Shown one piece after another: positions 19,686-25,071 of a stretch of DNA of 64,000 nt. The stretch lies in the NCBI RefSeq assembly GCF_054482595.1, contig NZ_CM137008.1, one strand, 5' to 3'. Numbering within the stretch: position 1 is the stretch's first letter; each line of letters begins with the position of its first letter. The notes under the pieces were generated by a model, which ran no database searches, was not told the DNA's origin, and was given only the letters and a program-made list of their open reading frames with translations. A program made the translations under genes and the position numbers.

Positions 19686-20621
19686 ATGTCGCAAAATCAA
19701 GAAATTAGCAAGAAAGAACAATACAACCTGAACAAATTACAAAAACGCCTGCGTCGTAACGTGGGCGAAGCCATTGCTGACTTCAATATGATTGAAGAAG
19801 GCGATCGCATCATGGTTTGCCTCTCCGGGGGTAAAGACAGCTATACCATGCTGGAGATTCTGCGCAATTTGCAGCAAAGCGCGCCAATCAATTTTTCGCT
19901 GGTGGCTGTTAACCTCGATCAAAAGCAACCGGGCTTCCCGGAACACGTTCTGCCCGAGTATCTTGAAAAGCTGGGCGTTGAGTACAAGATTGTTGAAGAG
20001 AACACTTACGGTATCGTGAAAGAGAAGATTCCAGAGGGCAAAACCACTTGCTCACTGTGTTCTCGGCTACGTCGCGGTATCCTTTATCGCACCGCAACGG
20101 AACTGGGGGCGACGAAGATCGCGTTGGGCCACCATCGTGACGATATCCTGCAAACGTTGTTCTTAAATATGTTCTACGGCGGCAAGATGAAAGGTATGCC
20201 TCCGAAACTGATGAGCGATGATGGCAAACATATTGTTATTCGTCCGCTGGCCTACTGCCGCGAGAAAGATATTCAGCGATTTGCCGATGCAAAAGCGTTC
20301 CCGATTATTCCGTGCAACCTGTGCGGTTCACAGCCTAACCTGCAACGTCAGGTGATTGCTGACATGTTGCGTGACTGGGATAAACGTTATCCAGGGCGTA
20401 TCGAGACGATGTTCAGCGCGATGCAGAATGTGGTGCCGTCACATCTGTGCGATACCAACCTGTTCGATTTCAAAGGCATCACCCACGGTTCTGAAGTGGT
20501 TAACGGGGGTGATCTGGCGTTTGATCGCGAAGAGATCCCACTACAACCGGCGGGCTGGCAGCCAGAAGAAGATGAAAATCAGTTGGATGAGTTACGGCTG
20601 AATGTGGTTGAAGTGAAATAA
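19686..20621 (+). CDS. ttcA: tRNA 2-thiocytidine(32) synthetase
   Basis: 311 aa; PP-loop SGGKDS; CxxC cysteine pairs. Confidence 0.95.
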
Positions 20622-20624
20622 CCA

Positions 20625-20705
20625 GGATAGCGCCCGATGCGCAAGCGTATCGGGCTACTCTTATGGAGGCCGGATAAGACGCGGCCAGCGTCGCATCCGG
20701 CAATC
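20625..20705. repeat. REP/BIME elements between convergent ttcA and dbpA
   Basis: ggccggataagacgcg and gcgtcgcatccggcaat match REP consensus. Confidence 0.6.
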
Positions 20706-20749
20706 CCGAATAAGATGTTTACTCTTGCACCCGGCAATTCAACATTTCA

Positions 20750-22123
20750 TTATTTTAATAACCGCACCCGGCACGTTTTTCCTTTAATCTTCCCGCCCTG
20801 TAACTGTTTCCATGCTTTATGAGCAACAGCCTGACGGACCGCGACATAGACATGCGCCGGATGCACGGCGATTTTGCCTATATCTGCGCCATCAAGCCCG
20901 ATATCTCCTGTCAGTGCACCTAATACATCACCCGGGCGCATTTTGGCTTTTTTCCCGCCATCGATACACAACGTTGCCATTTCTGCTTCCAGCGTCACAA
21001 TGGAACTATTAGCTGGCGGCGTTTGCCAGTTAAGTTTTATCTGCAACATGTCAGAAATGATATTGGCCCGCTGTGCTTCTTCCGGAGCACAGAAACTGAT
21101 CGCCAGACCGCTATTTCCTGCACGAGCTGTACGACCGATGCGATGTACATGAACTTCAGGGTCCCACGCCAGCTCAAAGTTCACCACCAGCTCAAGCGAT
21201 TTAATATCCAGACCACGCGCAGCAACATCAGTCGCGACCAGTACACGGGCGCTACCGTTAGCAAAACGTACCAGGGTCTGATCGCGATCGCGTTGCTCCA
21301 AATCGCCGTGTAATGACAATGCACTTTGCCCTACTTCATTCAGCGCGTCGCAGACAGCCTGGCAATCTTTTTTGGTATTGCAAAACACCACGCAAGAGGA
21401 TGGCTGATGCAAGCTTAATAACCGTTGCAACAGAGGAATTTTGCCTTTACTGGATGTCTCATAAAATTGTTGTTCAATGGGTGGCAAAGCATCTGTTGAG
21501 TCAATTTCAATCGCCAAAGGATCGCGTTGCACTCGTCCGCTGATTGCGGCGATGGCTTCCGGCCAGGTTGCCGAAAACAGAAGCGTCTGTCGAGATGCAG
21601 GCGCAAAACGGATGACATCATCAATGGCATCGCTAAATCCCATATCCAGCATGCGGTCGGCCTCATCCATCACCAAAGTATTCAGCGCATCCAGTGATAC
21701 CGTGCCTTTTTGCAGGTGATCCAGCAAACGGCCCGGCGTTGCCACGATAATATGCGGCGCATGTTGCAACGAATCACGCTGCATACCGAACGGTTGACCA
21801 CCGCACAACGTCAAAATTTTGGTATTTGGCAGAAAACGCGCCAGCCGACGCAATTCACCTGCCACCTGATCCGCCAGTTCACGCGTAGGACACAGCACTA
21901 AAGCCTGGGTTTGAAATAGCGACGCATCAATTTGCTGTAACAAGCCGAGGCCAAAAGCCGCCGTTTTGCCGCTGCCAGTTTTCGCCTGCACGCGAACATC
22001 TTTTCCGGCAAGGATCGCCGGAAGCGCGGCGGCCTGCACCGGCGTCATGGTTAAATAACCCAACTCATTAAGGTTCGTGAGTTGGGCGGGAGGCAAAACA
22101 TTCAGGGTAGAAAAAGCGGTCAC
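20750..22123 (-). CDS. dbpA: ATP-dependent RNA helicase DbpA (23S rRNA-specific DEAD-box)
   Basis: 457 aa; Walker A AKTGSGKT; DEAD box VMDEAD. Confidence 0.95.
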   Translation of the reverse strand: MTAFSTLNVLPPAQLTNLNELGYLTMTPVQAAALPAILAGKDVRVQAKTGSGKTAAFGLGLLQQIDASLFQTQALVLCPTRELADQVAGELRRLARFLPNTKILTLCGGQPFGMQRDSLQHAPHIIVATPGRLLDHLQKGTVSLDALNTLVMDEADRMLDMGFSDAIDDVIRFAPASRQTLLFSATWPEAIAAISGRVQRDPLAIEIDSTDALPPIEQQFYETSSKGKIPLLQRLLSLHQPSSCVVFCNTKKDCQAVCDALNEVGQSALSLHGDLEQRDRDQTLVRFANGSARVLVATDVAARGLDIKSLELVVNFELAWDPEVHVHRIGRTARAGNSGLAISFCAPEEAQRANIISDMLQIKLNWQTPPANSSIVTLEAEMATLCIDGGKKAKMRPGDVLGALTGDIGLDGADIGKIAVHPAHVYVAVRQAVAHKAWKQLQGGKIKGKTCRVRLLK

Positions 22124-22155
22124 AATCTATTCTCGTGGTCATCGACGCAAAGTCA

Positions 22156-22326
22156 TCAGGCGCGTATCCTCGCAGATCTACGCTCACGATGCGACAATTT
22201 AATCGGTTCTTCATCGGGTGGTGGGTCAGGCATGGGTTGCGGGCGAGGGATCGGATCGGGCACTGGAACAGGATCGCCAGGAATCGGTTCAGGGACAGGA
22301 ATTTGCAAATAAATAAGTATCGTCAT
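22156..22326 (-). CDS. Candidate small proline-rich protein (56 aa), unnamed
   Basis: Hand-translated from the minus strand: MTILIYLQIPVPEPIPGDPVPVPDPIPRPQPMPDPPPDEEPIKLSHRERRSARIRA, stop TGA. GGAGGG 4 nt upstream of the ATG. Below the ORF-track length cutoff. Confidence 0.4.
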   Translation of the reverse strand: MTILIYLQIPVPEPIPGDPVPVPDPIPRPQPMPDPPPDEEPIKLSHRERRSARIRA

Positions 22327-22383
22327 ATTTCCCTCCGGTCATTGGGTGGACTCTTAAAGGGTAGACGCTGATAAATAACAGGC

Positions 22384-22505
22384 AAAAAAAAGCCGACTCA
22401 TCAAAGTCGGCGTCGTACGAATCAATTGTGCTATGCAGTAATTCAAAAAAGGAAGTAAGACAATATGGAGCGCAACGCCCATCGCTTGACGTTGCATTCA
22501 CCTGC
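22384..22505 (-). ncRNA. fnrS: FnrS small RNA (FNR-activated)
   Basis: Reverse complement reads GCAGGTGAATGCAACGTCAAGCGATGGGCGTTGCGCTCCATATTGTC...GAGTCGGCTTTTTTTT, matching recalled FnrS incl. terminator; located between zntB and dbpA as in K-12. Confidence 0.85.
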
Positions 22506-22539
22506 AAGAGAGATATTGCCCTGAATGGGTAGAGAGTTT

Positions 22540-22553
22540 ATTGACTTCGCTCA
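22540..22553 (-). promoter_or_regulatory. FNR box upstream of fnrS
   Basis: ttgacttcgctcaa approximates TTGAT-N4-ATCAA; centre about 41.5 nt upstream of the inferred FnrS 5' end. Confidence 0.55.
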
Positions 22554-22600
22554 AACTTTGCGGCGTTTTTGTATACAGACAGCCGGAAAAATTGCTTTTG

Positions 22601-23605
<1,005 letters not shown>

Positions 23606-23838
23606 TTATTTTGTAGTCTAGCCTTCTGGCCCTGTTACGCAACATCTCATCACCCCATTACCCTGAAATGATTAATAAAATTCTGTCTAAATTGAATACA
23701 AAAAGCAAAATGCTTTTCCGTATACAAACCGTGTGAAGTGTTAAATAGCGTCTATCATTATCAGAATTATCTGATCATATGACGTGGCTTTTTTGCGATC
23801 GGATAGCAACAAAAATTGATAAAAATAATGGGATCTCA

Positions 23839-25071
23839 ATGATTACGCACAACTTCAATACCCTGGACTTACTCACCAGTCCTGTCTGGATCGTTTCGCC
23901 CTTTGAGGAACAGTTAATTTATGCCAATAGCGCGGCGCGACTGTTGATGCAAGACCTCACGTTTAGTCAGCTACGAACCGGTCCCTATTCCGTCTCCTCA
24001 CAAAAAGAACTGCCGAAATACCTCTCCGATCTGCAAAACCAACACGATATTATCGAAATCCTCACTGTTCAGCGTAAAGAAGAGGAAACAGCATTAAGCT
24101 GTCGGCTTGTTTTGCGAGAGCTGACAGAAACAGAACCGGTGATTATTTTCGAAGGTATCGAAGCGCCGGCAACGCTGGGTTTAAAAGCCAGTCGCTCAGC
24201 AAATTATCAGCGCAAAAAACAAGGTTTTTATGCGCGCTTTTTTCTGACTAACTCTGCACCAATGTTGTTGATTGACCCGTCACGAGATGGCCAAATCGTC
24301 GATGCTAACCTCGCCGCGCTCAATTTCTATGGTTATAACCATGAAACGATGTGCCAGAAACATACCTGGGAAATAAATATGCTCGGGCGTCGCGTCATGC
24401 CTATCATGCATGAAATTTCGCATTTACCCGGCGGTCATAAACCTTTGAATTTTGTTCATAAACTGGCGGATGGATCTACTCGTCATGTGCAGACCTATGC
24501 CGGACCGATTGAAATTTATGGCGACAAGCTCATGTTATGTATTGTGCATGATATTACTGAGCAAAAACGGCTGGAGGAGCAGCTGGAACATGCTGCTCAC
24601 CATGACGCGATGACCGGATTACTGAATCGGCGACAGTTTTATCACATTACGGAACCAGGCCAAATGCAGCATCTCGCCATCGCTCAGGATTACAGCTTGT
24701 TGCTCATCGACACCGATCGTTTTAAACACATTAACGATCTCTATGGGCATTCTAAAGGTGATGAGGTGTTATGCGCCCTCGCCCGCACCCTCGAAAGTTG
24801 CGCTCGCAAAGGCGATTTGGTGTTTCGTTGGGGAGGCGAAGAGTTTGTCTTATTGCTACCAAGAACCCCACTGGATACCGCGCTTTCGCTGGCTGAAACT
24901 ATCCGCGTAAGCGTGGCAAAAGTGAGTATTTCGGGCTTACCACGCTTTACCGTCAGCATTGGTGTGGCGCATCACGAAGGAAATGAAAGCATCGATGAAC
25001 TGTTTAAACGCGTTGATGATGCTTTGTATCGGGCGAAAAATGATGGACGCAACCGCGTGCTGGCGGCATAA
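23839..25071 (+). CDS. dgcM: Diguanylate cyclase DgcM (PAS-PAS-GGDEF)
   Basis: ORF track 23779..25071; start at MITHNFNTLDLL gives 410 aa; GGEEF active site in RWGGEEFVLLL. Confidence 0.9.
   Translation: MITHNFNTLDLLTSPVWIVSPFEEQLIYANSAARLLMQDLTFSQLRTGPYSVSSQKELPKYLSDLQNQHDIIEILTVQRKEEETALSCRLVLRELTETEPVIIFEGIEAPATLGLKASRSANYQRKKQGFYARFFLTNSAPMLLIDPSRDGQIVDANLAALNFYGYNHETMCQKHTWEINMLGRRVMPIMHEISHLPGGHKPLNFVHKLADGSTRHVQTYAGPIEIYGDKLMLCIVHDITEQKRLEEQLEHAAHHDAMTGLLNRRQFYHITEPGQMQHLAIAQDYSLLLIDTDRFKHINDLYGHSKGDEVLCALARTLESCARKGDLVFRWGGEEFVLLLPRTPLDTALSLAETIRVSVAKVSISGLPRFTVSIGVAHHEGNESIDELFKRVDDALYRAKNDGRNRVLAA

What the first reader, a model, noticed from the sequence alone, without database searches (positions are those of the whole stretch)
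22156..22326. Unlisted proline-rich 56-codon ORF with strong Shine-Dalgarno between fnrS and dbpA
A minus-strand ORF (MTILIYLQIPVPEPIPGDPVPVPDPIPRPQPMPDPPPDEEPIKLSHRERRSARIRA) starts 4 nt after a GGAGGG Shine-Dalgarno and ends about 30 nt before dbpA. It has a hydrophobic N-terminus followed by a Pro/Asp-rich tract. It could be a small protein, or a stalling-prone upstream ORF controlling dbpA translation. I cannot say from memory whether it is already annotated.
Basis: seen in the sequence. Interest (0 to 1): 0.5.

Follow-up and report, generated by a model that had tools for sequence, protein, structure and literature searches.

The report
Known small-protein gene ynaL upstream of dbpA
The ORF is real but not new: it is ynaL, an annotated and experimentally detected proline-rich small protein of E. 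coli that always sits just upstream of the helicase gene dbpA; its last ~50 bases are frozen at the DNA level for a reason not yet known.

Summary
The ORF at 22156..22326 (-) is exactly as described: ATG 4 nt after GGAGGG, 56 codons, 16 Pro, stop 32 nt before the dbpA GTG, downstream of fnrS. It is not unlisted. RefSeq annotates it as ynaL ('proline-rich small protein YnaL') in E. coli genomes, Pfam has a family for it (PF23677, E=1.3e-37), and VanOrsdel et al. 2018 detected the chromosomally SPA-tagged protein and noted tetracycline ribosome-profiling support. A 2024 preprint lists a retapamulin start-site entry and calls it non-TM and disordered. In 29 loci from at least 10 enterobacterial genera the order zntB-fnrS-ynaL-dbpA and the reading frame are always kept. 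The Pro-rich core is under protein-level purifying selection (dN/dS 0.08, dbpA 0.04). The polyproline-stalling uORF idea is weakened: 4 of 30 sequences have no Pro-Pro at all, and the stop-to-dbpA gap varies from 14 to 32 nt. One thing looks unreported: the last ~16 codons are invariant even at synonymous sites (pS 0.13 versus a dbpA median of 0.65). This implies a cis-acting DNA or RNA element for dbpA inside ynaL, whose nature I could not resolve. Verdict: already known gene, low interest, with a modest open lead.

The parts
22156..22326 (-). ynaL coding sequence (56 codons plus TGA). This allele differs from K-12 by T3I and by a stop one codon earlier.
   Evidence: sequence, ORF. RefSeq CDS ynaL, WP_021556762.1, in strain XH990, whose DNA is 100% identical. 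Pfam PF23677, E=1.3e-37; the K-12 sequence is 57 aa.
22331..22336 (-). Shine-Dalgarno GGAGGG, 4 nt upstream of the ynaL ATG
   Evidence: A GGAGG-like or AAGGG element sits at the same place in the other loci.
22207..22275 (-). Pro-rich core (residues 18-40, DPVPVPDPIPRPQPMPDPPPDEE): amino acids nearly invariant, third codon positions free
   Evidence: alignments; dN/dS 0.079 at dS 1.1; 8 of 9 amino-acid-invariant codons vary synonymously.
22188..22206 (-). Nucleotide-invariant block 1, CCGATTAAA(T/A)TGTCGCATC, within ynaL codons 41-47
   Evidence: All synonymous sites are fixed across genera. It is one copy per genome.
22159..22178 (-). Nucleotide-invariant block 2, GATCTGCGAGGATACGCGCC. It covers the last ynaL codons, including the fixed rare codons AGG and ATA, and ends at the stop codon.
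   Evidence: pS 0.127, versus 0.308 for the lowest and 0.654 for the median 16-codon window of dbpA.
22124..22155 (-). ynaL-dbpA spacer (32 nt here, 14-32 nt elsewhere) with a conserved ACC..CGAGA (weak SD-like GAGA at 22131..22134) before the dbpA GTG
   Evidence: No terminator-like or promoter-like site was scored in it.
20750..22123 (-). dbpA (ATP-dependent RNA helicase DbpA), GTG start. Its first 16 codons have the lowest synonymous divergence in the gene.
22388..22505 (-). fnrS sRNA gene, with its intrinsic terminator at 22392..22411, 61 nt upstream of the ynaL ATG
   Evidence: RF01796, 134.8 bits. (terminator-like site). (present in all 29 other loci).
22358..22367 (-). Conserved CGTCTACCCT block between the fnrS terminator and the ynaL SD. 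It may be part of the ynaL promoter or 5' leader; its function was not established.
   Evidence: invariant core in 13 representatives. (not alignable in Klebsiella). The sigma-70 scan found nothing above threshold.

Best explanation
The ORF is ynaL, a known and annotated gene of Enterobacteriaceae. SHOWN: It is translated from the ATG behind the GGAGGG Shine-Dalgarno into a roughly 56-64 residue proline-rich peptide with no predicted fold. Its central 23 residues (DPVPxPDPIPRPQPMPDPPPDEE) are kept by purifying selection on the protein. It always lies between fnrS and dbpA. INFERRED: It is probably co-transcribed with dbpA, because the 14-32 nt gap holds no scored terminator or promoter. The peptide itself therefore has a function, most likely one connected to DbpA or the ribosome, as VanOrsdel et al. 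suggested. That function has not been determined. SHOWN: The last ~50 nt of ynaL carry a second, independent constraint on the nucleotide sequence, since every synonymous site is frozen, and this runs on into the dbpA start. INFERRED: This is best read as a cis-acting element for dbpA expression embedded in the ynaL coding sequence. It could be an internal promoter or an mRNA element governing dbpA translation initiation or coupling.
For: Identity: RefSeq annotates a ynaL CDS at exactly this position in DNA that is 100% identical, and the region matches in 5392 of 5426 complete E. coli genomes. Pfam YnaL PF23677 scores E=1.3e-37 over the full length. 162 homologues were found, all carrying PF23677 and named YnaL in Escherichia, Salmonella, Citrobacter, Enterobacter, Klebsiella, Kosakonia, Leclercia, Lelliottia and others. 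Expression: SPA-tag immunoblot and tetracycline ribosome profiling (PMC6001520), and a retapamulin start-site entry with non-TM and disorder calls (PMC11188072 supplement). Coding selection: the frame is intact in 29/29 loci, one strain has an in-frame 11-codon deletion, and core dN/dS is 0.079 against 0.040 for dbpA. Linkage to dbpA: zntB-fnrS-ynaL-dbpA order holds in 29/29 loci. Nucleotide element: C-terminal pS is 0.127, against 0.308 for the lowest and 0.654 for the median dbpA window. Among amino-acid-invariant codons, 10 are fixed and 0 variable in the C-terminal part, against 1 fixed and 8 variable in the core, Fisher p=1.2e-4. The blocks are identical in Klebsiella although its frame continues 5 more codons, and the only changes, in Kosakonia, are non-synonymous. 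No fold: AlphaFold pTM 0.21 with no secondary structure.
Against: No function of YnaL has been shown anywhere I could search. Co-transcription with dbpA is inferred only, because no TSS or operon data could be retrieved. The nature of the invariant 3' element is unresolved. The sigma-70 scan finds no promoter-like site in 21900..22700. The RNA fold is no better than shuffles (z=-0.32). RNAalifold gives no covariation. All compared genomes belong to one family, so part of the invariance could reflect limited sampling, although the adjacent core shows dS of about 1.1 in the same genomes.
Confidence: 0.8

Rival explanations
1. ynaL is mainly a regulatory leader ORF. Ribosomes pause on its proline-rich sequence (EF-P-dependent PPP/DPP motifs) or on the fixed rare codons AGA-AGG-AUA near its end. 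The position of the paused or terminating ribosome then sets dbpA translation, or protects the mRNA from Rho, so the peptide acts only in cis.
For: ynaL is always adjacent to dbpA. dbpA has a GTG start and only a weak GAGA Shine-Dalgarno-like element. DPPPD is present in 25/30 sequences. Three very rare codons (1.2-4.6 per 1000 in this window's long ORFs) are fixed within five codons just before the stop. The nucleotide-level constraint links the ynaL end to the dbpA start. EF-P-dependent polarity through upstream polyproline ORFs is an established mechanism (PMC5021804, listed; abstract only, not read in detail).
Against: Four of 30 sequences have no Pro-Pro at all and one has only PP. The stop-to-dbpA gap ranges from 14 to 32 nt and falls in all three relative frames. 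The stop codon is TGA or TAA. A tagged product accumulates in exponential and stationary phase. No RBS-sequestering structure is supported. Selection for rare codons as such would allow AGA/AGG exchange and would not fix the neighbouring common codons GCG, CGC and GCC, yet all are invariant. No pause data exist for ynaL in the EF-P/EfpL supplement, which was cut when stored.
Confidence: 0.12
2. The invariant 3' blocks are a DNA element: an internal promoter for dbpA lying inside ynaL. On my reading this is an extended -10, TGcGAGGAT, followed by a GC-rich discriminator, ACGCGCC, with block 1 supplying the -35/UP region. ynaL and dbpA would then be at least partly independent transcription units.
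For: Two fixed blocks are separated by about 10 variable nt, and the downstream block ends about 35 nt before the dbpA start. That layout is what a promoter would give. Synonymous sites are frozen while amino-acid-changing substitutions are tolerated in Kosakonia. No RNA structure is supported. A GC-rich discriminator would suit a ribosome-assembly gene under growth-rate control; that point is from general knowledge and was not tested.
Against: The consensus scan finds no sigma-70-like site on either strand in 21900..22700. The proposed -10 matches the consensus at only 3 of 6 positions and the best -35 at 3 of 6. Twenty-nucleotide blocks of complete invariance are longer than promoter hexamers need. 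No TSS data could be obtained.
Confidence: 0.3
3. The invariant 3' blocks act in the mRNA. They could be a binding site for a protein or sRNA, or a structure that governs dbpA translation initiation or mRNA stability. One example is the GGA triplet presented in a GCG-AGGAUA-CGC hairpin loop, which resembles CsrA sites; that resemblance is recalled from memory.
For: The constraint is continuous with the conserved dbpA translation-initiation region, whose first codons have the lowest pS in dbpA. RNAalifold proposes a hairpin whose loop coincides with the only variable stretch, and a long-range helix pairing ynaL codons 38-41 with dbpA codons 3-6, which would enclose the dbpA start.
Against: The covariation term is -0.24, with effectively no compensatory changes. 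The single-sequence fold has z=-0.32. The Kosakonia C-to-A change breaks a G-C pair of the proposed hairpin without compensation. FnrS pairing is not better than shuffles. There is no similarity to DbpA's 23S rRNA target region. The motif is not found elsewhere in the genome.
Confidence: 0.35
4. The ORF is a chance open frame that is not a functional coding sequence.
For: ORFs of this length are common in the region (55 of at least 30 aa in 4.5 kb). A mass-spectrometry survey cited in PMC6001520 found no peptides for any of that study's small proteins.
Against: The frame is intact in 29/29 loci, core dN/dS is 0.079 at dS 1.1, and indels are in-frame only. There is immunoblot and ribosome-profiling evidence.
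Confidence: 0.01

Closest known systems
YnaL (E. coli K-12 ynaL; Pfam PF23677 'Protein YnaL-like'; RefSeq 'proline-rich small protein YnaL')
   Same: Same locus, same gene. The DNA is 100% identical to an annotated ynaL in strain XH990, and the protein is 96% identical to the K-12 form.
   Different: Allelic differences only: T3I, and a stop at codon 57 that removes the terminal Cys of the K-12 protein.
Polyproline/EF-P-dependent upstream ORFs that impose polarity on downstream genes (Elgamal and Ibba 2016, PMC5021804)
   Same: A short ORF containing PPP lies immediately upstream of, and probably on the same transcript as, a downstream gene with a weak start.
   Different: PPP is not conserved: 4 of 30 sequences have no Pro-Pro. 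No pause or EF-P dependence has been measured for ynaL. The peptide accumulates as a detectable product.
Nascent-peptide arrest leaders (SecM-secA, TnaC-tnaA, MifM-yidC2)
   Same: A short upstream ORF whose amino-acid sequence is conserved rather than merely its translation. The C-terminal ...RSARIRAC recalls the SecM ...GIRAGP arrest motif, but only loosely and only from memory.
   Different: Conservation of the C-terminal part is at the nucleotide level, not specifically the peptide level. The last residue and the distance to the stop vary. No RBS-sequestering helix is supported. Arrest was not tested.
TonB proline-rich spacer (Pfam TonB_N; NCBIfam NF008084)
   Same: Alternating X-Pro composition with acidic residues, and a predicted extended conformation.
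   Different: The resemblance is compositional only: 20.5 bits against a cutoff of 315, and Pfam TonB_N E=1. It is not a homologue.

Membership tests
YnaL (PF23677) | Significant full-length match to the family HMM | tested here: met
   E=1.3e-37, 128 bits, residues 1-56 on model positions 1-56 of 57.
YnaL (PF23677) | Same genomic position as the annotated ynaL (between fnrS and dbpA) | tested here: met
   A RefSeq ynaL CDS coincides with the ORF in identical DNA. Synteny holds in 29/29 loci.
YnaL (PF23677) | Translated product detected | not testable with these tools
   Taken from the literature: SPA-tag immunoblot and Tet-Ribo-seq (PMC6001520), and a RET Ribo-seq entry (PMC11188072 supplement). 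Those data are for the K-12 allele, not this one.
EF-P-dependent polyproline stalling uORF | Conserved consecutive-proline stall motif (PPP or strong XPPX) | tested here: not met
   PPP in 25/30 sequences, PP only in 1/30, and no Pro-Pro in 4/30.
EF-P-dependent polyproline stalling uORF | Measured ribosome pause at the motif that increases without EF-P | not testable with these tools
   ynaL is absent from the held part of the EF-P/EfpL pause tables.
EF-P-dependent polyproline stalling uORF | Downstream gene expression depends on translation of the uORF | not testable with these tools
   Needs reporter fusions.
Nascent-peptide arrest leader (SecM/TnaC/MifM type) | mRNA structure that occludes the downstream RBS and is opened by the arrested ribosome | tested here: inconclusive
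   RNAalifold draws a weak long-range helix around the dbpA start, but with no covariation. The single-sequence fold has z=-0.32.
Nascent-peptide arrest leader (SecM/TnaC/MifM type) | Arrest motif conserved as a peptide at a fixed distance from the arrest point | tested here: inconclusive
   RSARIRA is conserved, but so is every synonymous site under it. Kosakonia has SERIRAC. The C-terminal residue and extensions vary (A, C, I, CYR, CL, CRSSVL).
Small membrane protein | Hydrophobic segment long enough to span a membrane | tested here: not met
   The hydrophobic N-terminal run is about 8 residues and variable in sequence. AlphaFold shows only a 4-residue helix. It is listed as nonTM in the PMC11188072 supplement.
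TonB family | Score above the curated family cut-off | tested here: not met
   20.5 bits against a cut-off of 315.

The most novel reading that the evidence does not exclude
The frozen 3' end of ynaL, together with the conserved Pro-rich peptide, forms a previously unrecognised control module for dbpA. In the boldest version, translation of a peptide that is hard for the peptidyl-transferase centre to make (16 prolines in 56 residues) reports on ribosome performance. Through the invariant RNA segment next to the dbpA start, it would then tune synthesis of DbpA, a helicase that acts on the 23S rRNA region forming that same centre. A more modest version is that ynaL simply hides the growth-rate-controlled promoter, or a translational operator, of dbpA. 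The regulation of dbpA is described as essentially unknown (PMC7430678).
Probability: 0.15. Interest if true: 0.6.

Novelty: already known. Interest (0 to 1): 0.2.

Why it matters
As a discovery of a gene it does not matter, because ynaL is already annotated and experimentally supported. The residual value lies in two points. First, YnaL still has no known function, and this analysis shows that its Pro-rich core, not its N-terminus, is what selection preserves. That argues for a peptide-level role. Second, the end of ynaL carries a nucleotide-level element conserved across enterobacterial genera, right in front of dbpA. The regulation of dbpA and the other E. coli DEAD-box helicase genes is reported as virtually unexplored (PMC7430678). 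That gives a concrete and cheap mutagenesis target of about 50 nt.

Tried and rejected
1. Overlapping gene as the cause of the frozen synonymous sites. The other two sense frames and all three antisense frames were translated in 13 species, and none keeps a consistent start and stop.
2. FnrS sRNA pairing with the ynaL-dbpA mRNA. The duplex energy is -52.1 against a shuffled mean of -58.9, so there is no signal.
3. Autoregulatory mimicry of DbpA's 23S rRNA substrate (nt 2454-2606, taken from a real E. coli rrl). The local alignment scores 16 against a null of 15.0 +/- 2.2, p about 0.36.
4. Dispersed regulatory motif. The 57-nt block occurs once per genome in 5392 genomes and once in the window with up to 3 mismatches.
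5. Stable RNA structure. z=-0.32 and no covariation.
6. Sigma-70 promoters anywhere in 21900..22700. None reached threshold.
7. Homology beyond the family. The TonB hits are compositional. There is no PDB chain, no PADLOC family, and AlphaFold gives no fold.
8. Literature and data look-ups that returned nothing usable: the supplements of PMC6001520 and bioRxiv 10.1101/511675 are not held; Term-seq/Rho tables; EF-P/EfpL pause tables; Cappable-seq TSS tables by coordinate; the mBio 2019 and J Bacteriol 2015 papers are not held.
9. The genome-contig scan confirmed only 26 loci, probably because tblastn filtering of a low-complexity query dropped many. It is therefore a lower bound on distribution. 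Klebsiella, Kosakonia and Leclercia were added by exact-protein look-up.

Full report
OBSERVATION. The minus strand of the window carries an ATG ORF at 22156..22326. It encodes MTILIYLQIPVPEPIPGDPVPVPDPIPRPQPMPDPPPDEEPIKLSHRERRSARIRA, 56 aa. GGAGGG (22331..22336) lies 4 nt before the ATG. The TGA stop is 32 nt upstream of the GTG start of a 457-aa DEAD-box helicase ORF (20750..22123). Rfam places fnrS at 22388..22505 on the same strand (134.8 bits), with its terminator at 22392..22411. An ORF of this length is not in itself unusual here, since 55 ORFs of at least 30 aa overlap 20000..24500.

IDENTITY. A 571-nt query across the junction matches 5392 of 5426 complete E. coli genomes, and the features under the match are 'ynaL: protein YnaL / proline-rich small protein YnaL', dbpA and zntB. 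In strain XH990, which is 100% identical, the ynaL CDS (WP_021556762.1) coincides exactly with the ORF. Pfam has a dedicated family, PF23677 'Protein YnaL-like', which the window protein matches over its full length (E=1.3e-37). A search of 5.8 billion proteins returns 162 relatives. All carry PF23677, and many are named YnaL, in Escherichia, Salmonella, Citrobacter, Enterobacter, Klebsiella, Kosakonia, Leclercia, Lelliottia, Superficieibacter and Intestinirhabdus. So the ORF is not 'unlisted'.

PUBLISHED EVIDENCE. VanOrsdel et al. 2018 (PMC6001520) inserted an SPA tag at the chromosomal 3' end of this sORF in MG1655, listing it as 'ynaL, fnrS/dbpA, 1409308-1409481, 57 aa, MTTLIYLQ...IRAC'. 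They counted it among the 36 sORFs with a specific immunoblot band in LB cultures. [quoted passage not shown] The supplement of Fesenko et al. 2024 (PMC11188072) lists ynaL as non-TM with a consensus disorder prediction, and with a retapamulin Ribo-seq entry. I found no paper assigning a function. The window's allele differs from K-12 by T3I and by a stop replacing the last codon (Cys57).

COMPARATIVE TEST OF CODING. Twenty-six species-representative loci plus Klebsiella, Kosakonia and Leclercia all show zntB-fnrS-ynaL-dbpA and an intact ynaL frame. Length differences are in-frame, including an 11-codon deletion in E. coli E69. The first ~15 residues vary freely but stay Leu-rich. Residues 18-40 (DPVPxPDPIPRPQPMPDPPPDEE) and the tail (PIKLSH..RSARIRAC) are nearly invariant. 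Nei-Gojobori estimates over 13 representatives give dN/dS of 0.079 at dS 1.1 for the Pro core, against 0.040 for dbpA. That is unambiguous protein-level purifying selection. AlphaFold predicts no fold (pTM 0.21, no secondary structure), consistent with an extended, disordered Pro-rich peptide. No PDB chain, defence-system model or other family matches, and the TonB hits are compositional.

A SECOND, NUCLEOTIDE-LEVEL CONSTRAINT. The last 16 codons behave differently. Synonymous divergence collapses to pS 0.127. The lowest of 111 sliding 16-codon windows in dbpA is 0.308, which is its first window, and the median is 0.654. Among codons whose amino acid is invariant, the C-terminal part has 10 fixed and 0 variable, while the core has 1 fixed and 8 variable (Fisher p=1.2e-4). 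The single fixed 'core' codon is the first codon of block 1.

The alignment resolves two invariant blocks: CCGATTAAA(T/A)TGTCGCATC (22188..22206) and GATCTGCGAGGATACGCGCC (22159..22178). They are separated by about 10 variable nt and followed by a variable spacer. After that come a conserved ACC..CGAGA and TTGTGACCGCTTTTTC at the dbpA start. Klebsiella keeps both blocks base-for-base although its frame runs on for 5 codons. The three Kosakonia substitutions inside the blocks are all non-synonymous. The constraint is therefore on nucleotides rather than on the peptide. The fixed codons include AGA, AGG and ATA (1.3, 1.2 and 4.6 per 1000 in this window's long ORFs). However, the neighbouring common codons are just as fixed, so rarity alone is not the explanation.

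WHAT THE ELEMENT IS NOT. The following explanations were tested and rejected:
- An overlapping ORF on either strand.
- An FnrS target site.
- A mimic of the 23S rRNA fragment that activates DbpA.
- A dispersed motif.
- A structure supported by thermodynamics or covariation. One Kosakonia change also breaks a G-C pair in the RNAalifold hairpin.

What remains is either an internal promoter or an mRNA-level operator or coupling element. On my reading the promoter would be an extended -10, TGcGAGGAT, plus a GC-rich discriminator, and it falls below the scan's thresholds. I could not obtain TSS data. Ojha and Jain 2020 state that the TSSs and regulation of the E. coli DEAD-box genes are essentially undefined (PMC7430678).

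THE STALLING-uORF IDEA. PPP is present in 25 of 30 sequences. E. albertii and three Citrobacter have PSP and no Pro-Pro anywhere, and C. amalonaticus has PPQ. The stop codon is TGA (21) or TAA (9). The stop-to-GTG gap is 14, 23, 27-30 or 32 nt, in all three relative frames. The tagged protein accumulates in both growth phases. These facts argue against an essential EF-P-type stall and against fixed-geometry termination-reinitiation. They do not exclude looser translational coupling, given the GTG start and weak SD of dbpA. No pause data for ynaL were retrievable.

VERDICT. The finding is a correct reading of the sequence and a rediscovery of a known, annotated, experimentally supported small-protein gene. 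The one lead beyond current annotation is the nucleotide-frozen 3' end of ynaL adjoining dbpA, which is worth a small mutagenesis experiment. Novelty: already known. Interest: low (0.2).

Noticed in passing
window about 23598..23645 (-), from L001 476-523: RefSeq annotates a 15-codon ORF ('protein YnaN', gene label ydaN) 13 nt upstream of zntB. It is another tiny upstream ORF in the same neighbourhood.
   Followed up: no
window 22358..22367 (-): A CGTCTACCCT block between the fnrS terminator T-tract and the ynaL Shine-Dalgarno is invariant in 13 representatives. In several species it is followed by a complementary AAGGGT(AG). It is not alignable in Klebsiella, where the fnrS-ynaL spacer is 104 nt instead of 61. 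It may be the ynaL promoter -10 or a 5' stem-loop.
   Followed up: partly
window 22156..22326 (-): The window is not K-12. Its ynaL allele has T3I and a TGA where K-12 has the Cys57 codon. It is identical to strain XH990, and, over the last 57 nt, to O157:H7 PV15-279. The terminal Cys is therefore dispensable within E. coli.
   Followed up: partly
L010 3001-3135 (E. coli E69): An in-frame deletion of 11 codons (PEPIPGDPVPV, between two direct IPVP/VPVP repeats) shortens YnaL to 46 aa while keeping the core and tail.
   Followed up: no
window 22050..22620: 34 of 5426 complete E. coli genomes give no match to the fnrS-ynaL-dbpA junction. One genome has two copies, and six matches lie on records typed as plasmids.
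   Followed up: no
window 22109..22123 (-), dbpA codons 1-5: The first 16 codons of dbpA have the lowest synonymous divergence of the whole gene (pS 0.31 against a median of 0.65), and GTGACCGCTTTTTC is almost invariant. This is continuous with the constraint at the ynaL 3' end.
   Followed up: partly
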